Shown: positions 1 through 35,561, numbered from the whole stretch's first letter. The stretch: 49,084 nucleotides of DNA, filler included, from Sphacelaria rigidula (GCA_964200075.2; 3 parts of 3 records of this genome joined end to end with filler, not necessarily neighbours in it); one strand, 5' to 3'. The notes: generated from the sequence alone by a model not told the origin. A program made the numbers and translations.

Positions 1-42
1 CCACCCGTATATCTCCAGATGTTCTTCCTCGTCTGCGTTACC
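1..42 (-). mobile_element. 5'-truncated end of a LINE copy (same family as 3298-7231)
   Basis: tatatctccagatgttcttcctcgtct matches 3832-3858 (tatatcttcaggtgttcttcctcgtct); it abuts a G-run at 43-58. Confidence 0.6.
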
Positions 43-469
43 AGGGGGGGGGGGGGGAGAGGGGTGCAAGGCAGGTGAGGGAATATTCTACCGTGCAACC
101 TTGGTACGGTTGTAGAATTCACATTTCACAGTACTGATGAGCGTATACTGGGACATACAAACGCTCCTCTCCAACACTAGCCCGCCCTGATATGTGATAC
201 TTAACGCCGGTGTTCGCATGGCACGCATCCGGGGCTGAATTTTTCCTCCTTAGACAGTCCTCATTTTTACAGTAGGAAAGGACGGGTTGATCCGCTGATA
301 TGAAAGTGAAAAGCCCTCTGCTGCCCCTTTTTTCGCCGCGGGTACTGCTTCTGCTCGATCGGTAATGATGACCACGTACATTGAGGTGCAGCGAATCTTT
401 CTACTCGCTGAAGAGAAGCAAAGGCAAGACAAAAAGAAAGTTATTTCCCATTTGTTTTTGTTTGCTCAC

Positions 470-643
470 CGATGTGGAGGATGGCACGGTGAGCGGAATG
501 TACCCCGAGGTGCCCGAGGCCGACAGGGATAGTCCCGTGATATCGCCAACGACGTTGTCCACTGTGGCTGTCAATAAGGCTCCGGAGTAATCAAGCTCCT
601 CGTGAAGGGTGAACTCGGAGCACATGTCGTCAAACTTGACAGA
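470..643 (-). CDS. Agd3-like gene exon (SVKFDDMCSEF...YIPLTVPSSTS), C-terminal beta-rich region
   Basis: gtgcag|TCT acceptor, TCG|gtgagc donor, 174 nt, phase 0-0; the donor implies another exon downstream. Confidence 0.85.
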
Positions 644-3600
644 CTGCACAGTAAAGATCCGGCAAAGATTCCGGGAGAAGCATGGCCGGTATAGCGGTGG
701 ATGTGGAGGTAGTGACATCGCGTCGAGGAAATGAAGGCAAGAAACAATATGATGTAAATACGAAAATCGACGGAGGGGAGGGTGTTGCGGGTTGTGGGGT
801 GGGCGGGGTCATAGAAGGGCTTAGAGTCACGCAGTGTGTTTTGATCGATGTTTTATTGCATGCTGAACAAAAACATTTATTTTACAATCATTTCCACATG
901 ATTGCAGGAGAGATGTATCTTTGGGGGGTATGGCCAAGGAGTTTAGAGTTTTCGCCGAATCAAGCACGAAGCGCTGTGATGTGTTCAACGAGTCGCACAA
1001 AGCGTGAGCTGCATCCTGTTAATATTGTTCGGCCCGAAGCGTATTGATTATCTTGCATATGGATGGCAGCCTATAATGAACTGCTTTATTTCCTGCCTTT
1101 ACATTATATCGCCACTTTCAGGGGCAGCCATGGCTTATACGCTGCCTCATGGGTGTCTCCCCATGAAGCCTGGTTGGGGGGAGGAGGGGGCGCGTAAGCA
1201 ACTGCGTACGTCCAGTATCGACCGTTGTGTCTACTGCAACAGACAAGAGATTCCATACTGTCTGTGCGCAATACTTTTTTACGATGTAATATCGTTGTCC
1301 AGGGTGTGCGAGATAGACCTACGTTCCCAAATGCATATACTCGGAAAACTTCGCTGAAGAAGAAAGCTTTAGGAAGAGGAAATAAAAATAGGAAGGAGCG
1401 GAAAGGAACTGAAGGAGAGAAGAACAAAAAAACAGGAGTGAAGCAAGCCTGAGATCTTGTACCAGTCCCAGGGGAAAAGAAACGACAAGGCCCAGCCGCG
1501 TGGCTCCAAGCGGGTGCCACAGGAAAACCACCAAAAGGAAAAATCCCGTGGATGGAGGTTCCTATCCGACTACTTGCGAACTAGACAGCAGTAAGCGTCC
1601 ATCTAAACAAGCAACCCATCACGCCTTTACTATCTACTTCTCGTGAGCAAAATGGGACGCCTGGTGCGGATTGCCAATCCACTCCCTCGAGCCCCACGGC
1701 TCAAAACTGGTCGTTGTTCACGGGGGGAAACGGCTACCTAATCACACAAAGGTTTTGGCCATTTTCGGTGGCCGCAATTGGCCATCGTTTTAACAAGGAC
1801 AAATGGTCGTTCACTTACGGTGACGGGGAAGGCGATATACTGGCTCAACATGGCCATGATCTCCTCATACCAGTGCCCTAAAAGCGAGCCCCCCGACAGG
1901 TTGGTCGGAACCACGTTTGCCTGGTGGAACATGTACTTGTCCCTGCCGACCGCACGGATTCACACGATGACGGCAAACAAATGAAACGAGACAGGGGACC
2001 AGGGTCGGGGATTGTTCGGCACAAGGTGTGCTTGAAAGTAGGGGACGAAGCACAAAGGCACCCGTACTGTGTGCACAGCCAGAATTTGCCGTGCATAATA
2101 AACTGCGCAAAGGTAAACAAAACAATGAACGAAGCATTGACAAACAACAAGGATACGGATCGGACAACACGCTCGAGAAGTAGCCGGAGGAAACGACGAT
2201 CTTTGCCGAGGGCAACGCGCGGCAATTAGTGCAGGATTGAGACAGCAGACCAGCACCCCCCGGTCGTACCGTGGCGTATCACTATGCAGAACAAGGAGAA
2301 TGCGGACTGGTGAACGATTGAAAAGCGTAAACAACGTCAGCAACGTCCAGTACCAGCTACGGGCGCGTGCACAAGACGAAAAACACATTCCTCGCGAAAT
2401 TATATGTGCGTGTACATCGTGATGCTATAAGAAAGACAACGATCAACCGGGAAAACGATCAGGTCGATACAGGAGGAGGCGCAATCACTGATCACACGGA
2501 AAATATTTCACAAGAAAAAAACGTCGGTACGTAGTGAAAACTAGGCAGCGATTTTGAACGGAACCCCCCCGCCCCCCCGGAAAACGCGTGGCATGATAAC
2601 ATGTGAAAAATGAGCTTTGTTCGCGCGCGCGCGTGCACGCCACACCCACCCGTGGGCTAACGAAAATGACATCATCAAACACAGAACATAAAAAAACAAA
2701 TCATACCCGCCACCGAAAAACAACGTCGGCCTTGATGCATACACTATCGTGCGCTGTCGCCTCAGCAACCTCCCAATCGATCAGCTTCATCGGCGACTGT
2801 CTCACACCAAAGATCTTCATCGAGCACCTTCCTCGAACAGGTGCTACTTACCCCTCTGGTTAATCTTGCTACTATCGCACGTACCCCGCGCAAGGCATTC
2901 TAAATGGTTTTACATCCGGCCGGATTGGGACAGACGTGAGATGAGCACTGCACAAGCCTGACATGAGTCAACTCATTGGTGTTAGCCCCGATTCACCCCG
3001 ATTTTTGGATCTGCGACCGTCCGGCGCACACCGCGAGTCAAAACCTTGTGGCAACTGTTGAGATGCATATGTTCCATGATAAACGTCCTCGGCATTGACC
3101 ATCTTTATGCTATTGCTGGTAAATACCTGCGACCCATGAGAATCTGGCGAGTGGCGGTTTTAGCCTCCTGCTCGAACAAAGCCTCGATGCTGCCGAAGGA
3201 CTGGATGTCGTCTCCACAGCTGGAACACGACTGCAATAAAGCGTGGTTGGCAGGGAAATAAATTTAATGATACCGTGTGGTTGTCACCAGGAGGGGGCGG
3301 GGGGTGTACTTATTTGTTGCTTGATTTAGTCGTTTGACCATTGACCACGCATCCCTTTCGAGATAAACCAGCGTTTCTACTCCTAATAGAGACACCTCCA
3401 ACATTCCGGTTCTCATTGAGTTTCTTCCATACTTCACACAAAAACCTCTTACATATCTTATACCCGTCCTGGTTCGCCGTCTCTGGCCACCATCCATCTC
3501 CTAATATAGCCATCGTTTTTTCTCTACGGTCTACTGTATCGAACGATTTCATGCCACCTTCGTTCACACCTCGCATTCTACCGCTCTAGCACGTCCCATT

Positions 3601-6600
3601 CCTCCTTGCATTGCTCACATTCTGCTACTACATGAGCTTTTCTCTCCATTGCTTTGCAACAGGGGTAGTTCTGCCCATCTATTTCCTCCTCCTCTCGACG
3701 GCTGGTGAATATCTTCCTTTTTTGTGGCAGGTCCAGGTCCCCACCCGAAATCGCAGTTTCGTATTTTTCGCAGCGTCCATTGGATCATGTAAATATACGT
3801 TCATCTCTGTCCCCTTTCTCAAATCCCTCCCTATATCTTCAGGTGTTCTTCCTCGTCTACTTTGCGTCTGAGCGCTCCTTTTCTCCTTATTCCGATCATG
3901 TCTCTTACGTCCGTCTTGTACCCCGCGCCTTCACCTATGGACAGCATTTCGTCTTGGTTTCCTCCTGTCTCCTTCGACACTTCCTCGTCTTCTCTATCTC
4001 ACCTCATTCCAGAATGCCCTTTCAAACTTCTCTTCCATACAGCCCTATCAACTATTGCTGGCAATTTCTGCCTTTGCACGTTCTTTACGCTATATTGCCA
4101 TCGCATCATCGCATATTTCTCATGTCTCTGTTCGTTTTCAGTGAGTACATTCCCAACTCTGCTCTCAAAACTATATTACTCGTCGTTTCCGAGCATCCCA
4201 ATATTTTCTGAGCTGCTGCCATCTGTACTGTTTCCAACTTTTTTACCAACTTCACGTTCCCCTCCCATGCTTCTCCTGCATATTCCGGCTATGGTTGAAT
4301 CACGTTCATCAGGATAAATCTCCGAATCCTAGTGCCTAGGTGCGAATCTCTGAGGATCACGTCCAAGTTGCCTATCTGTGCCTTACCCTTTTCTATTACT
4401 TTGTTCATGTGTGCATCCAAAGAACAGTTTCTTGAGATCTCTACGCCAAGGTGTTTATACTGGTCTACGATCGGCACTTTCTTTTCTCCCCACTTCCATT
4501 TGGACTCTACCTGATTTTGCTTATCTTCGTTACAGACGAGTACCGCGCNNNNNNNNNNGTTGACGTTCGCTGTCACTCTCCACTTCCTAGTGCATTCTAG
4601 CGTCTTGTCTATTTGTGTCTGTAATCCTTGTGGTCTTCCTGAAATCCCCACAAAATCGTCCGCGAACATCAATCCTGATACCATATCTTCACCCACCTTG
4701 ACCTGTTGCTTTGCTGCTTCTATTGCTATTATCAGGTCTTGAATAAATAAGTTGAATAGAGTGGGTGATAATGGATATCCTTGCGCAACTCCTTGTAAGA
4801 TATCGAAATATTTCAATATTTCCCCGTCTAGCATCATGGCCCCTTTGGCACATTCTGTCATCTTCACCATTTCCAGTATATTTTCTCTTATCCCAGCTTC
4901 CCACAACGTTTTCCACAACCCATGTCTTTTTACTGTGCCATAAGCCTTTTGGACGTCCAGATTAGTACAGTACGCTGTCAGCCCGTTGTCTTTCCTACCT
5001 TGAACAATCTGACTCAGTGTGTACACGTGGTCTACGCAACTACGGTGTGGTCTAAAACCTGCTTGTGCCTCGCTGATTTTCTCCTCATTTTCTAGCATTG
5101 TTCCTACTCTTTCGTTCAGAATCTTACAGAATGTTTTCTCTACCGTGTTCCCTTTATCATTCCCTGGGTCAGCCTTTCAATCTTTTTTTTAAAAGGTTGA
5201 CGACTACTCCTTCTTTCTCAGATCCAGTTATATAGCATAACCATCATGGTGATCATTCCCTTTCCCCGTACTTGAGAAATCCATTCACTACTCCGTCTCC
5301 TCCTGCTGCCGTTCCGTTCTTGAGTTGTGCTACCCACTCCTTTACTCCATCTCCAGTAAACTCTCTCTGCAATTTTTTCGAGCCATTATCCTCCCGTTGA
5401 GACGTCGCTACATTTGCCTCTGCCCATGTGTTGATTTCTTTCTCGAATTCCGTGTCAAACTTCGTGGATATGTTTTGGTGTTACTAATTTACGGTAGTGC
5501 TCGACTAGCACTCCTCTCTTCCCCTTCGAATTGCCGAACATTTTATCGTTCTGTGCCCGGCGTGTGGCTATCCCGTTGTCTATCTTTCCTGCCTGGTTTC
5601 CCGTCATCCATTTCATCCCTACCCATGTGTGTTTCATACCGACATCGAAGTATTGACTTGTTTTATTCAACACATCCTCTCGTACTCCCTTATTTTCCAC
5701 TCTCAACCGCCTTTTGAACTTCCTTTCGAGCTTTAGTATACTCCTCCCATCCTACCGTACTTTTACTCGATATGCATCTCGCGTGAGCCTCTCTCCTTAC
5801 TATAGCCTCTTTTATTTCCTCATCCCACCATTTTACTGCTCTATTACATACGATCAGCTTCCCCCCCCCATGGCTTTACTTCATGTGCTCTTGATCAGCT
5901 GCTCCCACCCTTCTACAATCTTCGCTCCTGCTCGACTTCTCTTCATTTCGGTATCAGCTGTTTCTACGCGTCCCAACAGCTCGGAAACTTTCACTTGAGT
6001 TTTGGCCATCACTTCTTGGAAATCTTGCTGTTTTTGTTCCATACTTAGTTTATCGGTTCTCCATTTGTACAACTACCTACCCCGCCTATTTATTTTAGCT
6101 CTCGTCTATAGGCTTTCTGTCCATATTAGGCAGTGATCTGTAGTTCCCACGTCCTCCGCGCATACACGTACCTGCACGTCTTTACTATTTCCATGCCCGA
6201 CCACTAAATAGTCAAGAACGCAGCGTTGTATCTCGTCTTCGCATTTTTTAGCCCATGTCCATCGCGCCTTTGGTTTTTGTGCTCTATGATTCAGCGTCTT
6301 CATCTCGGTATGCTCAAGGAACCCCAGCATTTTTACCCCATTCGTGTTCTTCTTATCTTCCCCGTATTGCCCAATGATACCTTCCGGTTGACCTGCTTTT
6401 CCAACCCTTGCACTGAAATATCTCACTAACATTACTTCTCCTTGCCTTTTATACCTATATACATCTGCTGCTTTCTCTCCACCCCTCCGCTCTATATCGT
6501 TCCCCCTATTCTTTGATTCTGCGGGAATATAGATGTTGCCCACGAAGAAGTCCTTGGTTCCCCACTCTCCCGGTAAACTGTGCTCTCGTCGACTTTCGTG

Positions 6601-9600
6601 ACGTCGATCACTTCTATAATGTCGCACAGGTATTCCTTGCCCAAGAATCGTATTTCCCCCGCTCCCCTGCTATTAGGGTTTTGTCCCTTCCACTTTTTCC
6701 TTATCCATGCGTACATTCAACTTCGCGTCCGATTTCTGCCCCTCTTTCTCCCATGACTCTTGGATTCCTACTATATTTAGGTCGTGTCCACTCACTTGTC
6801 GCGCTATCTCTATTCTTTTGCGCTTGTACGTGGCGAATGCACACACGTTCCACGATCCTATTCTCAACTTCCTTCCCGAGTCATTATCTGCTCTCGTGTT
6901 GTCTGCTGTTGTCTTTCCGTCACGTTCACTTCCACTTTCTCTTGCTTGATTGTTCTTCCCGTTCCCGGGTTGGTCTTTGCCCATTTGCATCGGACCGCTA
7001 TGTTCCCTCCCCTTCCTCTTCCGGGCACTTACCTGTTCCTGCCTCTCTTTCCCTCCGTTTACCCATGCACTACGTCTGGGTTTTGTTGTCCAATTTGCTA
7101 TGTATACTCTCCATCCTACACTTCTAATCCATGCCAACACCTTGGTTGTCTTTATCCTTTCCCACTCCTCGCTCGCGCTCTGTTTTCGCGTGATTCGGAA
7201 CTGTTTCCCTCCCCCGTCTCTCCCTCGCGTGGGAGGGGGGATTGATGTTCTCTGGATGAAGTAGCATAAAATATCGCAATCTCCAGGAACTCTCCGACAC
7301 TCAACTGGCGTTGCCCTCATGAGTACTTCGATCGACGGTCGTTTCGTGTACGTCCGTGGTGCCTTCCTCTTTTCAACCTCTCGACCATGAGGGTAGTCCA
7401 TCTGGACTCATGTATACGTTTTCCAAAATGACACTGAAGCTGATACAACGGATGATCTATGCTCGCCGTCAAGGGATTGAGGTCGCATGTTGGAGGCTAT
7501 ATCGAGGTTTATCACGCTTGATATTTCGTTTGCTTCCAAGTGAATTACATCAGTTTTTCTCCACTGTACAGCAGGGTCCTCGTGAAGCAACTGTGGAAGG
7601 TCATTAATCTCACCCCTTTGTCCTGGGAGGGGTCGAGGTTGGAGCAGCCGCACACGATTCGTCGGATGTACTCGTTCTCGTTCACCAGGCACTGTTGGGT
7701 TGTTTCATTGTTGGCGGGGAGGGTGGCACGGGAGGGGGGAGACAGTTGAAACAAAGTTATGGAAAAGCAACTCGAAACAAGACTAAAACCAAGAGATTCC
7801 GCTGTCAACACAACATGGAGACAAACCCGGGGCTACACAAGAGGAAGGCCAACACAGGATTTTGTCTTCTCATTTTATTTTGTTCCGGATCTCCTACTTC
7901 CTTATGGGGCAATATTTTTTTAACGCGAGAGGGGCTTAGCAGTCACTTTCCCTCGTCGACCGTGAAGTCAAATTCCGTATACCCACGGGATGGATGGTCG
8001 CTCCTCAATATTGGCCACGATGCGAAAAAAAACCCGAGGTCGTTTGATTTCACCGAGACCCGAACCCACGACCCAACCGTCAGAAAGTTTCGAGGTTACC
8101 AACTGAGCCACCGGGGCGGCCAGTTTGCATACACAGACGGGAATATAATATACTACGCCCCATCGCGGTACAGATGGTTGGGCGCGAAATTTCGAGCGAG
8201 TATATCTGCATTGGGCATATTTGCATGCGCGGTAGTCGGGAAAACGCGAAGTCTCCTTGTTCAGTGCCCCACGCAGGCGACAGGTAAGCAATCCAAATAC
8301 AGCCCCGGTCTTCTAAGGAAAGAGTCTGATCGTCGAGAAAGGGAACCTGCAAATAGGTTATCTCTGCGACAAAATAGGCCCAGTCCGCCGCGTAAAAGGC
8401 CTGGGATTCACACGCCTAACCGTGGAGTATTTCGAGCTATTTTTTTTATCGTTTTGGATAGGTCCATGCACCATACCAATATTGTCTCTGTCTAAATCTC
8501 ACCACGCTATATTTTTGCCAGGATCAATGTTGTACACGAGTACAGTGGCGACGATGGAATTTGACGGGCTGTGGAAGCGCTGGTCCGACGGTCGATGACA
8601 AATGTGTAAGACTGGTATGTGTACTGGGGCAGAGGTGAGGCGACCCCTGGAGACAGCAGAGTCGTCCCGAGCAGGTAGAGGTTTAGCTAACACACAACGG
8701 CATCGATCCGCGGATGCCGCATTTCACGAACTTTCACGTCACCCGTCACGTGTTACTGTCGGGTGTCCAGCGTTGAACAAATATTTGAAAAAAAAACAAG
8801 AAAAGCTAGCAGACACTGTGAAGTACCCTCTTCCCTTTCCCACAATATTTGCAGGCGAAAATAAGTGGGGGTGTTACGCTACGATAGGGGCCGCAAATAT
8901 GTTTTGGCCATTTCTTCCACGAAATTACACTTTAAATCTTCATTGAAAGCAGCAACAGTCAGTTGCTCGACCGCGTTTATCATACTACTCGACACCGTTT
9001 CTACCCAGATACAAACACAACACGAGTGTATTTGGTCGTGTGACACACCTATCAGCCCTTTTTTTCGCGGAATTGAACACCCGCCTTTCCCACGATATCG
9101 GGGCACGATTGAGTGATGGAGGATGCTCATGGGTATCCCTCAAGGGCGATAGCCCTCGGAGCGGAAAGATCATTTTTTCAAGCAGCAGTGGAAGGGTTGA
9201 AGACCGCATGTCTACATCCAGATACAAGACTCAGTCACTGATGATAATTACCGACATATCTACAAAAACGGATAATTATGTGAGACAGGAGGGCTTCAAT
9301 AACTCACGTCGCCGTCCACGCAGTTGAAGTACACGAAGGAGGCCCAGCGAGGTACAATCTGGAATCCAGCAGCGCCTGTTTTTTTTTTTTTTCACGCAAG
9401 TGATCGCAGCGTGCAAATTCGTGTGGCGGAATGAGGCAACTACATCACCGCAAACATGAAAACTAAACATACAGGACATGCACGGAGACGTTTGTCGCAT
9501 GCCTGTGAATCCACTCCTATTTAAAATTCTCGCCAGTTTGCCGCAACAGATGGCGTTATAAAACCAACAACCACATACACACGCGCGCGCGCGCGTGCAT

Positions 9601-12600
9601 GCTCTCACACTCACCAAGTTGATTGGCCTCATTGCAGGTTTCCCATCAAATGTGGTGACGCAAAAACACAAAACCGGGAGGGAAGGGTCATACCTTGTGC
9701 ATTGTACTGCAACGTGGTCGCACTAACATACTTTGTTGGAATAACTCGTGTTCTGTAGCGCTGTCCTTGCGACAGGCTGACTAGCGTTCAGCGTACAGTA
9801 GTATGGCAGAGGTTACACCGTGGATGTTACAGTAGCCAGCGTCAGAAGTATGCAGAATTCGTAATTTCTTAGTTTCTCAAAGATTATCCAAATTTGTTTC
9901 GCTTACCACCGCTCATCACAGTGACTGTTGGGTGCCAAAAAATGGTCATCTGGAGATATTTTTAACCTCTTGACAATTATTGAAAGAGAATATATCTGCG
10001 ATCAATATCGAGTGACTTACGGGCTTGACCGATCTTCAGGGGTCCTGCGAATGTTCAACCCCAGGTTCTAGCTTTTCGGTATTTTCGGTGGACCGACTCG
10101 ATCTCGATCATGTAGGCTCAAAAATGATTATTTTTTGGAAATTCTACCTTTTCACTGCGCTAAAGCCGCAAAACTATGTTTCTTGGACCATTCACGGTCA
10201 ATAACGCCCTGCTGATAAACGGAGTCTTTACTCCGTATCGCCCCCACAACACCAACTTGGGCATTGTGGTTTGAGCACGGTCTGCTTATTTGTCGAAACT
10301 ATCGACGCTAGGACTTTCGAGTGCTCATGGAAAATGTTGTGCGGAAAAAAACGAAATGCTTGACTGAGGTCTCTGCAGTATAGGAGGGAAACACAATCTC
10401 GACCGTTATTGTAAAGAATGGTATTCGTATTCGTTTATCTGGCTATTTACCGTTTCGTTGCGAAAGAGCCGGAAAACTGTTTTTATTGGACCAAAAACGG
10501 TCAATAACACCCTCCTGATAAACGGGGTATCTAGTCCGCTTCGCTCCGAAAACACCAACTTGGGCACTGCAGTTTGAGCGCGGCCTACGCTTTCCCCTGA
10601 ATCTAATGACGCTGGCACTTTCAAGTAGTAATGAAGAATAATATCCGAGAAAAACTCATTAACTACAACAACTACGAATTCTGAAAACTTCTGATGCTGA
10701 CTACTATCGACCACTGCTTCTGCAGCTCAAAGAAAGAATCAGTGAGACAGATGGTTGATTGGGCTCTTCATCCGGCCAAGACAAACCAGAACGCACAGTC
10801 TCTCTTCGAAGCAGAGAACTGAAGGTGAAGAAAGAGAGAGATTGCAAGGACGGCAGAGGCTACCGATTCCAAGCATACCCAATCCTGGAACAAAAAGCAC
10901 AGACCTCTACACGAAAATAGGCTAGAACGCATCCTCAACACTGAAGTGTTGGTTTGCCAGCTCACAGATTGGATTCTTCCTTAACCCACGCGAATACAGT
11001 ACGATACTCACGAGCAATGGCAGCACACTGTCGTATCCTACGAGCTTACGTGGCTAAGCTTGGCGAGATATCTGACTTCAGGAATCCACATGAAACGATA
11101 CTTGTATCCAGTGTCCAGGGTCATTGTTGGGGTTGAGACCCCTTTCGAACCGGAACCTATTGTGCCGCTAATTTTCTACCGAGTTGACAGCCCACACAGA
11201 AACGGACAGCTGAATTACTGGCTGTATAAACTTGCAAAATACTTGACCCCAACACGTGTTAGCGGCCCGACGAGGATAGAGATCATAAAAAAATGACGAA
11301 AGCAGATCTTCTGCAGCCGTACAACTTCGAGTGCGTCGCACGCTGTGATCGATCACCTAGGCACTTCCATCATTTTACACCACGCCGGGCCCCTGAACAC
11401 GACCAGGCGGCGATACCCGATGTTGGACACTTCAAACAAGAGTAATGGCACCCGAGTTCTTGCTCCATTGTACCGAAAGTTTCGTGGGCGCGCGGCTGAG
11501 ATAAAGGCAAGAGCAACGGCGCCGTTTGAAAGCCATGACCAACACAGAGTTGTTGGGAGAGTATCCACAAAAAATATGTGGGATTTCCACGCCGTTAAAA
11601 CTGTTCATACCTCGGATTATCCGCTCAAGATTTAACAGTTGAGTTCTGATCTCTTGAGGGGAGGAGCGCATCGACCGATCAAAGGGCATAGGCAGTGGTG
11701 TTTTCTGTCTTGTTTTCCGGAGATAAAGGCGAACCATATATTTTTTTCAGACATTCATAAGAACCACGTAACTCCATAGACTTTCAAATATTTTGGTCCT
11801 GACTCTCCAAGCTCGAGTGAACAATCGCCGGATACACTTTGTTCGGTCTAGTACGCGGCCCAGTCTGTAGGATGCCTCGTCAACGCATTATCATGGTGCC
11901 CACAATGCAATGGTGACGAGAATTGGCAGCCGAAGATGTCGGTGTGATCGATGCACACCTCTCATCATGGTGCTATGACGGGGAGTAGAAGAAAGAGGAG
12001 GGGGGCGGGGGTGATCATCCTATCGAGATCGACAAGGTATTGTATATGTATATATATATATATATATACACGGGCCGTGCGCGAGCAACTGTAGAGTTGC
12101 ACAGGGCCAATGTCCAAAGTGCACCAACTCTGCAGATTTGTAGTGCCTAAAGTGATGTTTAGGTTTAGATTTCTCAAGAGATAACGCCTTTCATTGGGAT
12201 AAAATGCACCACGAGCATTCTCGAGGGGTCAGGATTAAAAACCCCGAAGCTGCTTATCGCAGCTTTCCCTCGCTCTCTTCTTCCCTGCAGGATACGGGGG
12301 GCAGGCAGGAGAGTAGTGGAACACATCGGGGTGATGACGTTGCAGTCGAGCCTGTGCGAAAATCTCATTCATTATGGTTCCTACACGCATGTTGTTGCGT
12401 TGTTCAAGTCTCAACCCCCAGTTCCTACTCCCTCACCATTGGTTTCGGTTGTGGTTCTGATGGAGTGGAACTGGTTCTCCGTAGACACCAAGCTGACCGT
12501 TGTCTGTACGCCGTCGTACGTGTTGTCGCCGGGGCCGCATGCGTTGAGGTTGGCCATGGCGGACGTGAGGCAGTACTGGTTGAAGAGACCAGTGATGCCC

Positions 12601-14841
12601 GGGTTCGTCATGCTGCGCCAGCAGTAGTTGTCGCTGTCGAACAGACCGGTGATGACGGCGATCTGCGCGTTACCTAAACGGATTGGTAAAACGGAGGAGG
12701 GGAGGCGGCGGAGGAGAGGGGGGGAGGCGTGCAGTGTTGAGGAAAGGGGCCGTGAAATAGGCAGGTTGCGTTGTGTTGGAGATAAATCCACAAGAGAACA
12801 ATGAAAACAGCAGATGAATTTATGCAACGGCAGAAGGGGTACGCCTTCCGCCATTTGTCACATCACACTTGATGAGTGCTTCATGGAAGGATATGTGACG
12901 ATAAATCCCCCTGTCTCCATCGTCGGGTGAATCGACGGATGAGAACTACTATGCGTTACCGAATACTTTTTCCAGCTGTGTTTCAGTCCATCACGTAAAA
13001 CACAACAGCCAACTTCGAATATCGAATACTCCAGTTTCCGCGGTTGGCATCAACAACAACAACACTACAACAGCAAGACTGTGTGGTAGAAGACAACTCG
13101 AAACTTAAAATGAAAACGTATTGGTTTCACCACTTCACCTCCGTCCTCAATGTCGCAATCCGACTGCCCCAGATTATCACGAGCCAGATGCGCAAGAGTG
13201 TGCGACTGCCACCAGAAGGACTCCATGTTATCCAGTACCCACGATAGTAGATCATCAGACGCCCATTCCCCTGAGTCGAACTCAGCTTTCATACCGGGCA
13301 CGGCCCGAGATAGCCATCCTTCCGGGAGAATCGGATCGATTCCTGCCGGTTCGTGATGATTGCGGTGTGGCGACGGTTACGGTGCGCGATCGCCACATGT
13401 TACGACCTTTCCATCGTTTGTCGATCAGAAGGAGGTGTTCATGGCGGCTAGACGGTGGCAGGGTGGTGTGATAGGACCGTGCGGGTTATTTTTCGCGGTG
13501 GAACCAACGTGCCGGGCACCTGGACGCTGGAAATGTGAGTAACGGTACTTGATACGTGAATCGGATAATGATTTCCTACTAACTCATACATCTTGACTGC
13601 CAGCAGAGACAAAAACAACAACTGAGAGATGCATATTCTGCAGCACCGTTATGGGAGTGAAGGAAGGCCTTACCGACCAAAACTCCGTTGTCAACAAGGG
13701 AAAATATGAACGCAGAGGGATATTGAAGACGTATTGAAGACGTCATTGACTGGTCGGACCTGTGCCGAACCTCTGCCGAACAGAACACAGGCTCCATCCG
13801 AAGTTACCTAGATTTAGTATGCGATAGCTGTAATTGTTTCATCGCATTGTTCTCGAGACAGGAAGCAGACTGGCCTGTGGCACTTGACAGCCCCCCGCAC
13901 ACACTAGATCTATTCAGTGCCGCGACGGCCTTGCTCAATTCGTCACAGCGGATGCAAAAAGCCCCCGAACGTCGAAGAAAACCCGTTTTATAGTACATTT
14001 TGGCGATTTGCAAAGTGCTGCGGCCTCCGCGGCACGCGTTACGGAAAGCCGCCGCACCACTGAATAGTCTTGGTGTGTGGGAAGCGCACGTATCAAACCG
14101 CAGTCCAATCCTCTGCTTCGTTGCCGAGATATCTACGTTGCAAGATGTACTTGATTTTAGTGTGATTGATTCATGTGGTACGAATCAATCCTTACGCTTT
14201 ATTTTCAGCGTTGCAACCCACGTATGCGCAGCCCGGCAAAGTGGAATGGCGCAAAAGTTGCGTGGAGACCTGTTTGACCAGCGGTCGACGTTCTTCTCTC
14301 TTTCCATCAATCAGGCCTACGAAATCGTGGATTTGGTGATTCGAACCGGCGATGATTGGTCCGAACCGTGAAGATGAGCACAACAACAACACGTGCGGCA
14401 GCTCCTATCCTCCTGTTGTAACCCTGTGCACAGGTGTACAGCAACGTCAGTCATAGGGCTGTTACAGAATCTACTATAGCAGTAGTACATTTTGGATGAG
14501 CGCCGTCGTCATTTGGAGTGACGCGTGTACCTGTGATTGACACTGACAGGCTCATTTAGGTTTTATTTAGTCTGCATTCAACTGACTGTGTAGTTGGTCG
14601 GTCCATTTCCCCTATATACAGTACCCAAAATCGAGCCCCATTCACCCCTTTAACAGTCGGTCAACTTTCACGCAGGACTCATTGTGAAGACACGTACGTG
14701 TCGGTTGATTTTACTAGTATGAATGATTGTGGAGCAATTCTGAACTCATTGACGCGTCATACCTGCACCCGACACCGGCTCTCCCTTGGGCAAGAGTCCG
14801 GCATCGGAGTCGTCGAAACTCACAGCATAGTCCGATTCCAC
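470..14841 (-). CDS. Spliced host gene (partial, 8 exons, 356 codons): Agd3-like / CE18-family polysaccharide deacetylase
   Basis: Exons 14841-14763, 13342-13139, 12673-12437, 9375-9308, 7691-7614, 3230-3127, 1942-1819 and 643-470 each have an AG acceptor and a GT donor. Junction phases match (1,1,1,0,0,2,0), giving 1068 nt with no stop. The product contains WWQSHTLAH, MTNPGITGLFN, CGPGDNT, GFQIVPRWASFVYFNC, GRRDKYMFHQAN, SLLGHWYE, FPVTSVKFDDM and YIPLTVP, in the order I recall for A. fumigatus Agd3 (HISHTFTH, IIPPAITGLHN, CVGDNT, GMQVNPRWATRIYYNC, LRHDGYMFHQAN, WPLVTI, PIPVTFP). Start and stop exons not located. Confidence 0.88.
1819..1942 (-). CDS. Agd3-like gene exon carrying the YMFHQAN motif
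   Basis: ggcag|G acceptor, ACC|gtaagt donor, 124 nt. Confidence 0.9.
3127..3230 (-). CDS. Agd3-like gene exon (SCSSCGDDIQSFGSIEALFEQEAKTATRQILMGR)
   Basis: ttgcag|TCG acceptor, AG|gtattt donor, 104 nt; its phase-2 end completes an Arg codon with the next exon. Confidence 0.85.
4289..5098 (-). pseudogene. LINE reverse transcriptase domain (fragment)
   Basis: 269-aa ORF with QAGFR, QG-PLSP-LF and FADD motifs; contains a 10-N gap. Confidence 0.93.
6106..6880 (-). pseudogene. LINE apurinic-like (APE) endonuclease domain (frameshifted)
   Basis: KLRIGSWNV...IVGIQESW in ORF 6673-7401, continuing to NIYIP, LDYLVV and TDH in ORF 6106-6627. Confidence 0.88.
7614..7691 (-). CDS. Agd3-like gene exon (CLVNENEYIRRIVCGCSNLDPSQDKG)
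   Basis: caacag|TGC acceptor, GGG|gtgaga donor, 78 nt, phase 0-0. Confidence 0.82.
7857..8121 (-). mobile_element. tRNA-derived SINE
   Basis: Minus strand begins GGCCGCCCCGGTGGCTCAGTTGGTA with A-box TGGCTCAGTTGG (8110-8099) and B-box-like GGTTCGGGTCTC (8066-8055). No acceptor-stem pairing, so not a tRNA. A non-tRNA body and an A-rich 3' end follow; the 3' boundary is approximate. Confidence 0.75.
9308..9375 (-). CDS. Agd3-like gene exon (GFQIVPRWASFVYFNCVDGD)
   Basis: aacag|GC acceptor, GAC|gtgagt donor, 68 nt; conserved PRWA motif. Confidence 0.88.
10170..10626. repeat. Diverged direct repeat, about 155 bp x2 (10170-10323 and 10473-10626), period about 303 bp
   Basis: Shared blocks ttggacca..acggtcaataac.ccct.ctgataaacgg.gt and aacaccaacttgggca.tg..gtttgagc.cgg. 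Probably the interior of an unclassified intronic element. Confidence 0.75.
12437..12673 (-). CDS. Agd3-like gene exon (PGITGLFN...GPGDNT)
   Basis: tttag|GT acceptor after a pyrimidine tract, G|gtgagg donor, 237 nt, GC-rich third codon positions. Confidence 0.9.
13139..13342 (-). CDS. Agd3-like gene exon carrying the metal-binding SHTLAH motif
   Basis: ggcag|GA acceptor, G|gtgaag donor, 204 nt; encodes ...DDLLSWVLDNMESFWWQSHTLAHLARDNL... Confidence 0.87.
14763..14841 (-). CDS. Agd3-like gene, most 5' exon found (VESDYAVSFDDSDAGLLPKGEPVSGAG)
   Basis: aatcag|GTG acceptor and G|gtatga donor; its phase-1 end fits the next exon. No conserved motif, so it is the least certain exon. Confidence 0.65.
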
Positions 14842-15127
14842 CTGATTTCCGTGGAGCAACAGCCGCACAAGAAGCTAAGCGCTTCAACAGCATAAAAGCA
14901 GACATATTACGGCCACAACCCGGACATTCTCTGCTCGTAAAAGGTGGAATATCTACTTCATCATGACAAAGAGAAGAGTCATACAAAGATAGGGAGGGGG
15001 GGGGGGGGGGGGGGGGGGGAATTTTTTGTTTTTTTGGTTGGTTGTTTTGTTGTCCACCCCACTTTCTTTTTGAAACGCAAACCNNNNNNNNNNAGGTTAC
15101 AGTAGATGCGCGGCCGGGCGAGGAGAA

Positions 15128-16211
15128 TGAGGGGGGGGGGCTGGGGGGGTGGGGGGGGGGGGGGTACTCATATGTTGTTTGCCTGGGTCATTTGATCGCT
15201 GACCACGCATCCCTTTTGAGCCAGAGCACCGTTCCTATTCCAAATACTAGCTGGGCCAGCTTACAAGCGACTAAACGTTGTTTACACCACAGCTTTTCCA
15301 GTTTCCCGAATAAATCCAACGTAAACATATCACTGTGAACTGCAGACCCACCTGATGACAAAGGGCTGCGTCGCTGTTTGATTGGCGTCGTGTTGCCGAT
15401 GACTTCATTGTACTGCACAACGTACGGGGTGCGCTTCATATCGTTGGGCGATAACGTGTCGGGGTGATTTTTCTTTTTTTAATGCGGTGGGTTCACGTCA
15501 GCAATCACCCCGCACTGGGTATAAGTGCGGTGCAGCAGCGTCAAGCAAAACGTTTCAAGCACAGCCCAATTCGACGACTCTTGAGCTGAGATTTCACGAA
15601 GACCTTCTGCACCCAAGGAAATGATACATCCCCGGAGCAGCTGCAGATCCTCATTTCTTTCGTGGACTTATGAAATTATCTTGTTTTTGCTGAAATTTCA
15701 GATCCCATAACTTCCTGTTTTTTCTTCTTTTTTTCTTCTTGTTTTCTTTGTTGTTCACGTTTTATTCCGCACGTCGATCATAATAAGCTCATGTCGAAAT
15801 TTCAGCGTCCAACTCCTAACTTTACGCCGTGCGTCGCCTGAGCAAGAAAACCACCCATTGTTGGCTGGCCCAGCTCGTGGAGATACTTGAAACATTTGGG
15901 CGCTCATTGCGCTTTCTCCGTACACTACATAGTAACATTTCTTGTCCCCTTTCTTGTTTTGCCGTCTGGGGCCACCGCCTATTTCCCAGCGTAGCCATCG
16001 TTTTCTTGCTCCTGTCTGATGCATCAATTCGTGCCACCTTTTTTCACTTTCCACGTTTCCCCCTCCAACACGTCCCGTTCCTCCTTGTATGAACCACATT
16101 GTTATTATATGCTTCCCATTCTCTCTTGCTTTGCCACAGGGGCAACTCTGTGCATCTACTTCCTCTTCCACCCGACTACTGGTATATCTCTTTCTTCGTT
16201 CTGGCAGATGC
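15128..16211 (-). mobile_element. 5'-truncated LINE 3' fragment, split by a MITE
   Basis: 15165-15246 matches 3305-3387 and 15880-16211 continues colinearly with about 3388-3735 (encodes SCPCGKARENGKHI); G-run at 15128-15164. Confidence 0.85.
15247..15877. mobile_element. Non-autonomous TIR element (MITE, 631 bp), probably Tc1/mariner-pogo type
   Basis: TIRs ctagctgggccagcttacaa and rc cgagctgggccagccaacaa (17/20). Flanks are TA (15245-15246) and TG (15878-15879), a probable mutated TA duplication. It cleanly interrupts a LINE copy. Confidence 0.75.
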
Positions 16212-16216
16212 TATGA

Positions 16217-16282
16217 GAGGGGGGGGTACTCTTTCGTTGCTTGCCTTAGTCATTGCACCATTGACCACACATCCCTTTCGAG
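16217..16282 (-). mobile_element. Very short LINE 3' tip (same family)
   Basis: ggggggggtactctttcgttgcttgccttagtcattgcaccattgaccacacatccctttcgag matches 3300-3362. Confidence 0.8.
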
Positions 16283-16296
16283 AGGAGTTGGGGGGG

Positions 16297-16396
16297 NNNN
16301 NNNNNNNNNNNNNNNNNNNNNNNNNNNNNNNNNNNNNNNNTTAATTAATTAANNNNNNNNNNNNNNNNNNNNNNNNNNNNNNNNNNNNNNNNNNNN
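16297..16396. other. Scaffold gap with artificial TTAATTAATTAA spacer
   Basis: N44-TTAATTAATTAA-N44, identical in design to 32692-32791; an assembly artefact. Confidence 0.95.
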
Positions 16397-16501
16397 ATGG
16401 CCCATATGAAAGTCATTTGTCATGAATTTTGGTCAGGGAAAGCACGACGTTTGAGTTGAACCTCATTTGCTTTTCAACCCCATTTTCGAAAATCGGCTGT
16501 T
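16397..16501. repeat. End of a repeat element running into the gap; inverted copy at 32620-32691
   Basis: ggtcagggaaagcacgacgtttgagttgaacctcattt...tcaaccccattttcgaaaatcggctgtt is the reverse complement of 32620-32689. Confidence 0.8.
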
Positions 16502-17279
16502 CTAAGGAGGTGCTCTGGGCAGAGGGGAATGTGTAGTAACGTTTCGCGTATTATCTTACTATACCCTGACCTCACCCAAAATCAACATCAAGACCGTGTA
16601 AGCTCCACGAGATACATCAAACCCCCAAGATGTAGAAATGTAGAAACGCAACTTCAAGTGCAGTGACGCGGGCAACATGTAGAGTGCATGGCCTTGTATG
16701 CCGTACATTCAGTCACACGACACAATATCTGTCCGCCCCGCACATTTGATATACCGCCAACCTGCCCCGTAATCTACCTGAATTAGTCCATCTTCGTATG
16801 CACGAAGACTGAGATCGGCAATATTCTCATAGATTGTTATGTGCGCACTTTGATTTTTCTACTTTTTATATTCTGAAGTATATGTCGCGCTTTGTCCGTT
16901 CCTATTCTAACTGCTCGCGCTGGCCCTTGTTCGGTCGTTCGGTCCTCCCTTTCGCCATCAGGCATTGTCTGAGGGGTTGATGGCGGACATCTTCCATCAA
17001 ACAGCACCGCTGTTGGTGTCCACGAGTGCGTCCATCCATTGGACGGGAGTAGCCTTCGCTACGATAGACTTCGTGTCTTTTTTTTCGACGGACGTACCTG
17101 GCGTCGCAAACGCTATGGGCACCCTATGATGCTCAAGGTTCAGCTGAGCACTCTCGCGATTTCGAGAGAGTTTTGAATATCTGCTGCGTATCTTATCGGT
17201 CCGCTGTTGTATTGGTCCTGCCGGTGCTTGTTCGCGGGTGTCTTCGTGAGAGTCTGACAACAAATTAGTTGGTAGCCAG

Positions 17280-17489
17280 TGTGATGCGTGAAAAGCCGCG
17301 TGCTTAGAGAACCCGCATCGGCATTTGAACATCCCTATGGTTAGGGTCAGGGTTACGGTTAGTGTTGGGGTTAGGGCAGGGGCCTGGTCCATGCAGGGAC
17401 TGACCTGATTGGATTCGAAACACATTGATCCTGAGGTGTTTCGAACTACGATGCGGTACCTCAAGTACATGGTTTTCTCGCGCATTACA
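17280..17489. mobile_element. Short TIR element with internal degenerate (TTAGGG)n, copy 1
   Basis: Termini tgtgatgcgtgaaa and tctcgcgcattaca; internal ggttagggtcagggttacggttag; body colinear with 18422-19139. Confidence 0.75.
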
Positions 17490-19139: not shown

Positions 19140-19298
19140 CCCCAGCACTAACCCTAACCCCAACCCTGACCTAGGGATATTCCAACGCCGATGCGGTGCA
19201 CCAAGCACGCGGTCCTCTCACGCATTCCACCATACTGTAAAATCACTCTGCCGACGATGATTCTCTGCAACTGGCAATATGGGGGAGCGGAAAACTAG

Positions 19299-19867: not shown

Positions 19868-19982
19868 TCAGTCCATTGCGATGCGTGGGACGACCGCGTG
19901 CTGTTCGGACCGCATCGGAATTCGGACACCCCAGAACCGACGGTCCGGAAGACCGCGTGGACGCCGTCAATGCAGAGACCGC

Positions 19983-20236
19983 TATTCCTTGCCTCAGGCA
20001 CAGTGTAACGGCTTCAGATCTTTTATTGAAGAGCACCCAAGTTCTACTATAACTTGGGAGAGTGCTGATGAGATGGAGGTAGATGAATGAGAATGACCAA
20101 GGGAGGCGGACTGCTCTGCTGCTTGGAGCCGTACTGTACCACATTTGCACACACTTTACTATCGGTACTCGTACGTCACCCCGACCCCCGGTTCTACTTA
20201 GATCCAGCATTACTGGGTATCTGAATCACTCAAACA
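19983..20236 (-). repeat. Copia 3' LTR
   Basis: Begins TGTTTGAGTG right after the PPT; the terminal CA is not preserved. Confidence 0.9.
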
Positions 20237-25841: not shown

Positions 25842-25866
25842 ACTTGCCCAATCGATTGATTACTAG

Positions 25867-35490: not shown

Positions 35491-35519
35491 CTACTACCAC
35501 AACAACAACAACAACAACA

Positions 35520-35561
<42 letters not shown>

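What the first reader, a model, noticed from the sequence alone, without database searches (positions are those of the whole stretch)
470..14841. Hidden, intact Agd3/CE18-like exopolysaccharide deacetylase gene in an apparently algal genome
Seen: eight small exons spread over 14.4 kb splice into a stop-free 356-aa product while everything around them is decayed, which suggests selection. Established: Agd3 de-N-acetylates alpha-1,4-GalNAc in galactosaminogalactan, the adhesive biofilm polymer of Aspergillus; CE18 is known mainly from fungi and bacteria and uses an Asp-His-His metal site plus conserved Arg and His residues. Here the HxxxH (SHTLAH), PRWA Arg and MFHQAN His are all retained. Inference: if the host is a brown alga or stramenopile, whose described wall polymers are alginate, fucans and cellulose, this points to an uncharacterised amino-sugar or cationic extracellular polysaccharide pathway (adhesion), or to an enzyme acting on microbial polymers. 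It may be an old horizontal acquisition that has since gained introns.
Basis: partly seen in the sequence, partly recalled or inferred. Interest (0 to 1): 0.8.

Follow-up and report, generated by a model that had tools for sequence, protein, structure and literature searches.

The report
Expressed brown-algal Agd3-type deacetylase gene fragment
The window holds eight correctly spliced, transcribed internal exons of a brown-algal gene for an Agd3-like (CE18) sugar-polymer deacetylase, one member of a large but barely discussed brown-algal gene family whose substrate is unknown.

Summary
Eight minus-strand exons (14841..470) with canonical GT..AG borders splice to 1068 nt, giving 356 aa with no stop. 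Intron-less contigs in three RNA-like runs of one study join six of the seven junctions, and a DNA-like run shows none of these joins. The product is 74.6% identical, without gaps, to the Agd3_CE protein P0001 and keeps 8 of 8 invariant and 21 of 21 near-invariant family columns that it covers. These include HxxxH, the PRWA Arg and the MFHQAN Met/His.

It is not a whole gene. The first part of the CE domain (the Asp-Asp motif), the N-terminal domain and the C-terminal end are not in the window. The transcripts run about 1.2 kb further 5' and 3.1 kb further 3'. An artificial N/TTAATTAATTAA/N linker ends the contig 1.45 kb upstream of exon 1.

The host is a brown alga. The gene sits inside a monophyletic brown-algal clade of at least 49 proteins from 8 named genera. 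Some of these already carry the automatic name 'Agd3 deacetylase domain-containing protein'. It is therefore a new member of a known kind. The GalNAc-polymer idea stays open but testable.

The parts
14763..14841 (-). Exon 1 of the window's part of the gene (79 nt). It aligns to P0001 residues 302-328.
   Evidence: A cag acceptor lies at 14844-14842. The profile hit has E 3e-4. Spliced contigs of X6, X7 and X8 cover 14762-14843 and join it to exon 2.
13139..13342 (-). Exon 2 (204 nt). It carries motif CM2, HxxxH (SHTLAH), with His codons at 13200-13202 and 13188-13190.
   Evidence: tblastn to P0001 gives 73% identity, E 9e-31. The profile hit has E 1e-39. Pfam Agd3_CE matches at profile positions 117-155. 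RNA joints are 13341|14762 and 12671|13137. The invariant His residues are kept.
12437..12673 (-). Exon 3 (237 nt).
   Evidence: tblastn to P0001 gives 79% identity, E 6e-35. The profile hit has E 2e-47. Invariant G424 and D445 are kept. RNA joints are listed.
9308..9375 (-). Exon 4 (68 nt). It carries motif CM3, the PRWA arginine (codon 9347-9349), equivalent to Agd3 R613.
   Evidence: Pfam Agd3_CE matches at profile positions 230-252, E 7e-5. Invariant R484 is kept. RNA joints are 9374|12436 and 7691|9308.
7614..7691 (-). Exon 5 (78 nt).
   Evidence: The profile hit has E 1e-11. The GT..AG junctions are. RNA joints are 7691|9308 and 3230|7614.
3127..3230 (-). Exon 6 (104 nt).
   Evidence: tblastn to P0001 gives 80% identity. 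The profile hit has E 1e-14. The RNA joint is 3230|7614. The junction to exon 7 falls at a break between two contigs and is only consistent with the model, not bridged.
1819..1942 (-). Exon 7 (124 nt). It carries motif CM4, MFHQAN, with the His codon at 1924-1926, equivalent to Agd3 M666/H668.
   Evidence: Pfam Agd3_CE matches at profile positions 291-342. tblastn gives 81% identity. H564, Q565, N567 and W582 are kept. The RNA joint is 643|1819.
470..643 (-). Exon 8 (174 nt), the start of the C-terminal beta-sandwich domain. It ends at a gtgagc donor, so the gene goes on beyond the window's left edge.
   Evidence: The sequence is. tblastn gives 66% identity, E 1e-20. Contigs of X6, X7 and X8 all break at 470 and hold about 3.05 kb more sequence on that side.
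4289..7407 (-). Remains of a non-LTR retrotransposon inside intron 5 (the intron spans 3231-7613). It is not part of the gene's product.
   Evidence: RVT_1 matches at 4559-5176 with E 1e-22. There is a weak Exo_endo_phos match at 6673-7407. Depth in the DNA-like run is 1e5-1e6 against about 60-80 over unique sequence.
16297..16396 (.). Artificial linker (44 N, TTAATTAATTAA, 44 N). It marks the end of the contig that holds the exons, 1.45 kb upstream of exon 1. A second identical linker lies at 32692-32791.
   Evidence: The sequence was printed and the N runs are listed. That such six-frame-stop spacers mark concatenated contigs is recalled, not tested.

Best explanation
Window 470-14841 (minus strand) holds eight consecutive internal exons of a single-copy, transcribed brown-algal gene. 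The gene encodes an Agd3-type (CAZy CE18) metal-dependent polysaccharide de-N-acetylase.

By analogy with its full-length relatives, the whole protein is secreted and has three domains: a CBM87-like N-terminal domain, the CE18 barrel and a C-terminal beta-sandwich. The window encodes the last roughly 80% of the barrel and the first part of the sandwich.

Inferred mechanism, following Agd3. A metal held by one Asp (motif CM1, encoded outside the window) and two His (H74 and H78 of the window product, SHTLAH) activates a water molecule. A CM1 Asp positioned by the PRWA arginine (R183) acts as base. The MFHQAN histidine (H263) acts as acid. The result is removal of N-acetyl groups from an extracellular amino-sugar polymer, which makes it cationic and adhesive.

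What is shown: the exon structure, splicing in RNA-like runs, family membership, conservation of the covered catalytic residues, and the brown-algal origin.

What is inferred: secretion, catalytic activity, presence of the Asp-Asp motif in the unseen 5' exons, and the substrate. An alpha-1,4-GalNAc-type polymer is my leading guess at about 0.35.
For: Exons and junctions:
- tblastn with 8 homologues and a profile find the same 8 collinear exons.
- All 7 junctions are GT..AG and align without gaps.
- The joined product is 356 aa with no stop.

Transcription:
- Runs X6, X7 and X8 (one study, labelled 'RNA?' by the tool) each hold contigs that join 6 of the 7 junctions. The DNA-like run X1 has depth 0 for every one of these joints.
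- Unique intron bins 8161-8704 and 11425-11968 have depth 0 in X6-X8 against about 65 in X1.
- The four runs X6-X9 hold 0.44 of the words of 12400-13400, which equals the exonic share of that stretch.

Family membership:
- Single exons hit Pfam Agd3_CE collinearly.
- Of the 8 homologues found with exon 2, 7 score E 1e-32 to 1e-45 against Agd3_CE and the eighth, the truncated P0004, scores 4.5e-13.
- P0001 matches the solved Agd3 structure 6NWZ by sequence with E 7e-24.
- The P0001 model (pLDDT 94.3) matches 6NWZ over its whole length, Foldseek E 2e-41, TM 0.76/0.81.

Constraint:
- The product is 74.6% identical to P0001 over 355 residues without gaps.
- It keeps 8 of 8 invariant and 21 of 21 near-invariant columns of a 50-sequence alignment that fall in the window.
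- Its terminal branch (0.089) is shorter than that of its sister P0001 (0.28).

Host:
- It sits inside a brown-algal clade with support 100 in both trees.

Secretion:
- The orthologue P0160 begins with a hydrophobic, signal-peptide-like N-terminus. This was read by eye; no predictor was run.

Catalytic roles:
- These are taken from passages of Bamford et al. 2020, PMC7229062.
Against: - The Asp-Asp motif (CM1), 4 of the 12 invariant columns and 10 of the 31 near-invariant columns lie upstream of exon 1. They are found nowhere in the window, so an active site cannot be shown for this gene.
- The content of the extra 1238 nt (5') and 3054 nt (3') of the transcript contigs could not be read.
- The RNA nature of X6-X9 is the tool's guess, and all four runs come from one study.
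- The exon 6/7 junction is not bridged by a contig.
- The spliced product itself could not be sent to Pfam or folded, so P0001 (75% identical) served as a proxy.
- No partner gene of a GAG/Pel-like pathway lies in the window. Scans of 167 ORFs found only transposon domains outside the exons.
- No activity or substrate is known for any brown-algal member.
Confidence: 0.85

Rival explanations
1. The locus is a 5'-truncated copy (a gene fragment or young pseudogene) that is still transcribed, perhaps from a transposon or neighbouring promoter. It cannot make an active enzyme because the Asp-Asp exon is gone.
For: No exon for the first ~65 residues of the CE domain or for the N-terminal domain exists anywhere in the 49 kb window. 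The region upstream of exon 1 is low-complexity poly-C/poly-G and repeats. The sequence of the 5' 1238 nt of the transcript contigs is unseen.
Against: - The contig ends at an artificial linker only 1.45 kb upstream of exon 1, so the absence of 5' exons is expected from the assembly.
- The extra 1238 nt matches the size needed for the ~300 N-terminal residues of P0001 plus a 5' UTR.
- There is no stop, no frameshift and no lost splice site in 8 exons.
- All 29 conserved columns covered by the window are kept.
- The terminal branch is shorter than the sister's.
Confidence: 0.07
2. The enzyme is real and active, but it works on foreign polymers: the Pel, GAG or PNAG-like biofilm matrices of epiphytic bacteria and fungi. 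It would be a surface defence or antifouling tool rather than a modifier of an algal wall polymer.
For: The known substrates of the family are microbial biofilm polymers (abstracts and passages). Alginate, fucans and cellulose are the wall polymers treated in the brown-algal ECM papers I searched. GH114, whose characterised members cut alpha-1,4-galactosaminide bonds, is amplified in brown algae.
Against: Deacetylation makes these polymers more adherent, not less, which would be a poor defence. Thirteen of the 49 family members are fused to WSC domains. From recall, brown-algal mannuronan C5-epimerases that act on the alga's own wall also carry WSC domains. Nothing tested here separates the two readings.
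Confidence: 0.2
3. The substrate is not a GalNAc polymer but another N-acetylated glycan, for example a GlcNAc-containing chitin-like or heparosan-like chain.
For: After Agd3, the best structural matches of the orthologue model are the N-deacetylase parts of human heparan-sulfate NDST1 (E 3e-12 to 3e-9). Identity to Agd3 is only 22%. The brown-algal clade sits on a very long stem, 1.26-1.6 changes per column, which leaves room for a change of specificity.
Against: Agd3 is by far the best match (E 2e-41 against 3e-12). One clade member (P0003) is fused to a GH114-associated domain. GH114 is the co-amplified hydrolase family. Both point to alpha-1,4-GalN/GalNAc chemistry.
Confidence: 0.3
4. The scaffold is fungal or bacterial contamination, which would make the gene an ordinary Agd3 or PelA relative.
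For: None was found. The family was first described from fungi and bacteria.
Against: - The 49 closest proteins include 36 named from brown algae and none named from fungi or bacteria.
- The window groups inside the brown-algal clade with support 100.
- Identity to chytrid, green-algal and ascomycete members is only 21-34%.
- The locus has spliceosomal introns of 0.5-4.4 kb filled with retrotransposons.
- The holders of the stretch are labelled one organism, or algae/protist metagenomes.
Confidence: 0.01

Closest known systems
Agd3 of Aspergillus fumigatus (PDB 6NWZ), founding member of CAZy CE18/CBM87
   Same: The three-domain fold is the same in the orthologue model (Foldseek E 2e-41, TM 0.76/0.81). 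The sequence match has E 7e-24. Motifs CM2 (HxxxH), CM3 (Arg) and CM4 (Met-x-His) align residue for residue with the window's exons. CM1 (Asp-Asp) aligns with the brown-algal orthologues.
   Different: Identity is only about 22%. The gene is brown-algal, interrupted by many introns, and is one of several paralogues per genome. In the window it is not next to any GAG-cluster gene. Its substrate and activity are unknown. The window itself lacks CM1 and the CBM87-like part.
Brown-algal 'Agd3 deacetylase domain-containing' / 'WSC domain-containing' proteins (e.g. five Ectocarpus siliculosus clusters, three tandem models labelled Undpi1)
   Same: They are the same family and the same clade. The window's orthogroup of 11 rows (support 98) includes Scytosiphon P0160 (71% identical), Pylaiella P0161, E. 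siliculosus P0182 and the three tandem models labelled Undpi1.
   Different: The window's gene comes from a species whose protein is not in the searched sets; the best match is 75%. Its subfamily carries no WSC domain in the precomputed Pfam lists, whereas 13 of the 49 members do.
Deacetylase domains of bacterial PelA / Bacillus cereus PelA-DA (Pel polysaccharide modification)
   Same: They are reported to perform partial de-N-acetylation of an alpha-1,4-GalNAc polymer and are discussed together with CE18/Agd3. I saw only the search listing and abstracts.
   Different: They were not compared here by sequence or fold. They are bacterial, periplasmic and operon-encoded.
N-deacetylase domain of human heparan-sulfate NDST1 (PDB 8CCY, 9F6Z)
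   Same: It is the second-best structural match of the orthologue model (E 3e-12, TM 0.46).
   Different: Identity is about 12%. It acts on GlcNAc in heparan sulfate and is fused to a sulfotransferase. It is a fold-level relative only.

Membership tests
CAZy CE18 / Pfam PF25115 Agd3_CE | Significant profile match to the Agd3 deacetylase domain | tested here: met
   Three single exons hit PF25115 collinearly, but each is below the 27.6-bit cut-off (22.4, 16.1 and 12.7 bits). A profile of 8 PF25115 proteins finds all 8 exons with E 2e-47 to 3e-4. The orthologue P0001 scores 137.6 bits. The spliced product itself could not be submitted to Pfam.
CAZy CE18 / Pfam PF25115 Agd3_CE | CM1: Asp-Asp (catalytic base D377 and metal ligand D378 of Agd3) | tested here: inconclusive
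   It is not encoded anywhere in the window. It is invariant (D241, D242) in all 50 aligned relatives, including the sister P0001. The transcript contigs extend 1238 nt 5' of exon 1, but their sequence is unseen.
CAZy CE18 / Pfam PF25115 Agd3_CE | CM2: HxxxH metal ligands (H510, H514) | tested here: met
   SHTLAH is in exon 2. H74 and H78 of the product align to invariant H375 and near-invariant H379.
CAZy CE18 / Pfam PF25115 Agd3_CE | CM3: arginine that positions the base (R613) | tested here: met
   PRWA is in exon 4. R183 aligns to invariant R484 and to Agd3 chain residue 491, which is R613.
CAZy CE18 / Pfam PF25115 Agd3_CE | CM4: Met-x-His with the catalytic acid (M666, H668) | tested here: met
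   MFHQAN is in exon 7. M261 and H263 align to M562 and H564 and to Agd3 chain residues 544 and 546.
CAZy CE18 / Pfam PF25115 Agd3_CE | Agd3-type fold (CE barrel with the beta2 insertion, flanked by a CBM87-like domain and a C-terminal domain) | tested here: met
   This was tested on the 75%-identical orthologue P0001 only. The model has pLDDT 94.3 and pTM 0.93. The top PDB hit is 6NWZ with E 2e-41 over 743 alignment columns. Pfam CBM87_Agd3 is weak, 19.1 bits against a 27.6-bit cut-off.
CAZy CE18 / Pfam PF25115 Agd3_CE | Metal-dependent de-N-acetylation of alpha-1,4-GalNAc chains | not testable with these tools
   This needs recombinant protein and oligosaccharide assays.
GAG / Pel-like exopolysaccharide gene cluster | Deacetylase gene clustered with a synthase (GT4 Gtb3/PelF), hydrolases (GH114 Ega3, GH135 Sph3) and an epimerase (Uge3) | tested here: not met
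   Pfam scans of 167 ORFs of the window (6, 150, 11) gave only transposon domains outside the eight exons (RVT_1, RVT_2, rve, RNase H, Pol_BBD, integrase zinc domain). The window is three concatenated contigs and no whole genome is held, so presence elsewhere in the genome is untested. Published tables list GH114 (78 rows) and GH135 (5 rows) in brown algae and sister groups.

The most novel reading that the evidence does not exclude
Brown algae as a group make or remodel a partly de-N-acetylated, cationic amino-sugar polymer (GAG/Pel-like, alpha-1,4-GalNAc/GalN) in their extracellular matrix or adhesive. The toolkit would be an old, multi-copy CE18 family, partly fused to WSC wall-binding domains and in one case to a GH114-associated domain, together with the amplified GH114 family. 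Such a polymer is absent from current models of the brown-algal wall (alginate, fucans, cellulose, mixed-linkage glucan). It would be a fourth independent use of this adhesion chemistry, after fungi, Gram-negative and Gram-positive bacteria.
Probability: 0.3. Interest if true: 0.7.

Novelty: new member of a known kind. Interest (0 to 1): 0.38.

Why it matters
The gene itself is an ordinary member of a family that public protein sets already hold for many brown algae. What is worth a specialist's attention is the family. It is monophyletic and already present in the early-branching genera Discosporangium and Choristocarpus. It has several copies per genome and is expressed.

It is almost absent from the brown-algal cell-wall literature. 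No paper in the held library contains both 'Agd3' and 'brown alga'. The detailed CAZyme tables of Mazeas et al. 2024 list a single CE18 fragment against 78 GH114 rows.

Together with the published GH114 amplification, this makes a concrete question testable: do brown algae have a GalN-containing matrix or adhesive polymer?

Tried and rejected
- Whole-genome search for partner genes: no genome is held for this window.
- 5' exons with the Asp-Asp motif: a --max profile search over all six frames with E up to 50, relaxed tblastn with seven N-terminal parts, and a motif regex found nothing. I first took this to mean an intron longer than 34 kb. I dropped that reading after finding the artificial linker at 16297-16396.
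- Other cellular genes in 15-48 kb: 150 ORFs were scanned and only transposon domains were found. Long ORFs 33132-34619, 43189-44484, 44565-45545 and 45629-46936 have no Pfam match even at E 0.1.
- The look-up of sequencing runs: no holder is on record as RNA. X6-X9 are labelled 'RNA?' by guess.
- Folding or Pfam-scanning the spliced 356-aa product was not done, because a joined sequence cannot be handed to those tools. The orthologue P0001 was used instead.
- Earlier findings of this scan: nothing by place or by words.
- Sister group of the brown-algal clade: FastTree puts the green alga Monoraphidium next to it at weak support (79). The IQ-TREE quick tree does not recover this. No donor or direction of transfer can be named.
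- dN/dS: not possible, because no coding DNA of a close relative could be fetched.
Full report
**Observation**

The gene lies on the minus strand. A motif scan found SHTLAH at 13188-13205, PRWA at 9341-9352 and MFHQAN at 1915-1932, all on the minus strand. Translated alone, the three stop-to-stop frames that hold these motifs each hit Pfam PF25115 (Agd3 deacetylase domain). The profile positions were collinear: 117-155, 230-252 and 291-342. Each score was below the gathering cut-off because the pieces are short.

A word-indexed search with the exon-2 frame returned eight longer proteins. All carry PF25115, and four are labelled with a brown-algal source: two models labelled Undpi1, which I read as Undaria pinnatifida, one from Sphacelaria rigidula and one from Ectocarpus sp.. 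tblastn with these proteins gave the same eight collinear hits. A profile built from them did too, with E from 2e-47 to 3e-4, and nothing else in the six frames of the 49 kb window scored below E = 1.

For each of the seven junctions, the best-scoring pair of sites is a GT donor and an AG acceptor that aligns to P0001 without any gap. The exons are:

| Exon | Coordinates (minus strand) |
|---|---|
| 1 | 14841-14763 |
| 2 | 13342-13139 |
| 3 | 12673-12437 |
| 4 | 9375-9308 |
| 5 | 7691-7614 |
| 6 | 3230-3127 |
| 7 | 1942-1819 |
| 8 | 643-470 |

Exon 1 follows a cag acceptor and exon 8 is followed by a gtgagc donor. Joined in a script, the exons give 1068 nt = 356 aa with no stop.

**Transcription**

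The stretch 12400-13400 is 44% exon. Four small runs of one study, labelled 'RNA?' by the tool, hold 0.44 of its words. Several larger runs of the same coded organism hold 0.63-1.00.

I laid X6, X7, X8 and the DNA-like X1 on 1-16296. Each of the three RNA-like runs has contigs that skip exactly the predicted introns:

- 643|1819
- 3230|7614
- 7691|9308
- 9374|12436
- 12671|13137
- 13341|14762

All of these have CT..AC ends on the plus strand, which is GT..AG on the minus strand. X1 has depth 0 for every one of these joints. Unique intron bins (8161-8704 and 11425-11968) have depth 0 in X6-X8 and about 65 in X1.

The seventh junction (1942|3127) falls where two contigs meet. It is consistent with the model but not bridged.

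The evidence comes from one study, and the RNA label is a guess. The pattern nevertheless shows intron-less joins, empty introns, and no such joins in the DNA-like run. That is what spliced mRNA looks like.

**The window holds only part of the gene**

The product aligns to residues 302-656 of the 711-residue P0001. In P0001 the CE domain starts at residue 238.

A 50-sequence alignment spanning brown algae, chytrids, a green alga and an ascomycete has 12 invariant and 31 near-invariant columns. Eight invariant and 21 near-invariant columns fall in the window's exons, and all 29 are kept. The other four invariant columns (W222, R232, D241, D242) and ten near-invariant ones lie upstream of exon 1.

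No frame of the window encodes that upstream part. This was checked with a profile search at E up to 50, and with relaxed tblastn using seven N-terminal parts plus a motif regex.

The transcript contigs account for the missing sequence. The contig that ends with exon 1 has 1238 further letters on the 5' side. The contig with exons 7-8 has about 3054 further letters beyond the donor at 470. Neither lies on 1-16296.

The 5' length fits the ~300 N-terminal residues of P0001 plus a UTR. Homologues also continue after the exon-8 equivalent with a conserved block.

The absence of 5' exons upstream is an assembly matter. At 16297-16396, and again at 32692-32791, the sequence reads 44 N, TTAATTAATTAA, 44 N. 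I recall such six-frame-stop spacers as the usual mark of concatenated contigs; this was not tested. On that reading the window is three pieces joined artificially, and the contig with the exons ends 1.45 kb upstream of exon 1.

**What it encodes**

By sequence, P0001 matches the solved Agd3 structure 6NWZ with E 7e-24. With the chain offset of 122, that alignment puts the motifs described by Bamford et al. 2020 (PMC7229062, passages read) onto the brown-algal proteins:

| Agd3 motif | Agd3 residues | Brown-algal sequence | Location |
|---|---|---|---|
| CM1 | D377/D378 | VDD | upstream, outside the window |
| CM2 | H510/H514 | SHTLAH | exon 2 |
| CM3 | R613 | PRWA | exon 4 |
| CM4 | M666/H668 | MFHQAN | exon 7 |

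An AlphaFold2 model of P0001 built on the 50-sequence alignment has mean pLDDT 94.3 and pTM 0.93. Its best PDB match is 6NWZ over the whole chain (E 2e-41, TM 0.76/0.81). Next come the N-deacetylase parts of human NDST1 at E 3e-12 and weaker. The orthologue therefore has all three Agd3 domains.

The Scytosiphon orthologue P0160 begins with a hydrophobic, signal-peptide-like stretch and ends in a Pro/Ala/Thr-rich tail (read by eye). I could not hand the spliced product itself to Pfam or to the folding tool, so these statements rest on a 75%-identical proxy.

**Family and host**

A search with the CE region of P0001 returned 49 proteins including the query, all with PF25115.

- Thirty-six are named from brown algae of eight genera: Ectocarpus, Pylaiella, Scytosiphon, Hapterophycus, Sphacelaria, Choristocarpus, Discosporangium, and Undaria by its Undpi1 label.
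- Five clusters are from Ectocarpus siliculosus alone.
- Three are neighbouring gene models labelled Undpi1.
- Thirteen of the 49 are fused to WSC domains.
- One (P0003) is fused to a GH114-associated domain.
- UniRef names some of them 'Agd3 deacetylase domain-containing protein'.

The exhaustive representative search gave 667 proteins at E ≤ 1e-3. Identity drops sharply from 46-56% to 26-34%. The named proteins among the more distant ones are from chytrids, the green alga Monoraphidium and an ascomycete.

| Tree | Rows | Brown-algal clade | Support | Stem length |
|---|---|---|---|---|
| FastTree | 134 | 49 rows | 100 | 1.26 |
| IQ-TREE quick | 59 | 35 rows | 100 | 1.6 |

In both trees the window pairs with P0001 (support 99). 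In the IQ-TREE tree it falls in an 11-row orthogroup (support 98) with Scytosiphon, Pylaiella, E. siliculosus, the three models labelled Undpi1 and the GH114-associated fusion.

The window's terminal branch (0.089) is shorter than its sister's (0.28), which argues against relaxed constraint. The sister of the brown-algal clade is unresolved, so nothing can be said about a donor.

**Surroundings**

Intron 5 holds remains of a non-LTR retrotransposon: RVT_1 with E 1e-22 and a weak endonuclease match. The other two pieces of the window hold a copia-type element (RVT_2, Pol_BBD; about 20.5-24.3 kb) and a gypsy-type element (RVT_1, RNase H, integrase; about 39.5-43.3 kb). No cellular gene, and no GAG/Pel partner, was found.

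**Literature**

- No paper in the held library contains both 'Agd3' and 'brown alga'.
- None of the 15 top-ranked papers for CE18 together with brown-algal terms holds 'CE18'.
- None of the listed titles or abstracts for 'galactosaminogalactan' plus 'alga' presents an alga as producer (listing only).
- Denoeud et al. (bioRxiv 2024.02.19.579948) and Mazeas et al. 2024 (PMC11468063) report amplification of GH114 in brown algae and cite its alpha-1,4-galactosaminidase activity (passages).
- The Mazeas supplementary table, as held, lists 78 GH114 rows, 5 GH135 rows (Discosporangium and Tribonema) and one CE18 row, a Desmarestia herbacea fragment.
- Supplements of the bioRxiv preprint could not be seen and may list more.

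**Verdict**

The identification as CE18/Agd3-like and the brown-algal host are supported.

The claim of a hidden, intact gene needs correcting. This is an internal eight-exon part of an expressed gene. Its catalytic Asp-Asp exon lies off the contig. It belongs to a family already present, though hardly discussed, in public brown-algal data.

The functional idea, a de-N-acetylated amino-sugar polymer in brown algae, is untested. It gains some weight from the family's age, copy number and WSC fusions, and from the GH114 link.

Noticed in passing
window 16297-16396 and 32692-32791: The same artificial pattern occurs twice: 44 N, TTAATTAATTAA, 44 N. It looks like a six-frame-stop spacer between concatenated contigs, so the window is probably three unrelated pieces (1-16296, 16397-32691, 32792-49084). 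Anything inferred across these points, such as intron length or synteny, is unsafe.
   Followed up: partly
window 16431-16501 versus 32620-32689: A 71-bp stretch near the start of the middle piece is 93% identical to the reverse complement of the last bases of the same piece. It could be a terminal inverted repeat of an element or an assembly artefact.
   Followed up: no
window 20548-24317 (-): A copia-type LTR retrotransposon coding region: RVT_2 (E 4e-30 and 4e-6) and a Pol beta-barrel domain (E 2e-13), split over several frames.
   Followed up: no
window 39494-43324 (-): A gypsy-type retrotransposon coding region: RVT_1, RT_RNaseH, integrase zinc-binding and rve domains, broken into several frames.
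   Followed up: no
window 33132-34619 (-), 43189-44484 (-), 44565-45545 (-), 45629-46936 (-): Four long open frames (496, 432, 327 and 436 aa) have no Pfam match even at E 0.1. The last lies in the GC-richest part of the window (0.61 at 46-48 kb). They may be transposon gag-like or unknown proteins.
   Followed up: partly
window 14980-15145: Long poly-C/poly-G tracts and a 10-N run (15084-15093) lie just upstream of exon 1. The read-laying tool reports that contigs are cut there. A second 10-N run (4549-4558) sits inside the reverse-transcriptase frame without breaking it.
   Followed up: no
window 3290-3730 versus 15148-16283: A dispersed repeat is shared between intron 5 and the region upstream of exon 1, at 70-85% identity. 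It produces many false 'joints' in both DNA-like and RNA-like runs.
   Followed up: partly
protein P0003 (relative, not in the window): A member of the window's orthogroup carries a C-terminal GH114-associated domain (PF14741, E 1e-11) after the Agd3_CE domain. This is a physical link between the CE18 and GH114 families in brown algae.
   Followed up: partly
model of P0001 (relative): After Agd3, the best structural matches are the N-deacetylase parts of human heparan-sulfate NDST1 (E 3e-12 to 3e-9). This suggests that CE18 and NDST deacetylase domains share a fold.
   Followed up: no
proteins P0019 and P0021 (chytrid relatives): Two chytrid proteins of 2398 and 1926 aa contain two or three tandem copies of the Agd3-like region.
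   Followed up: no
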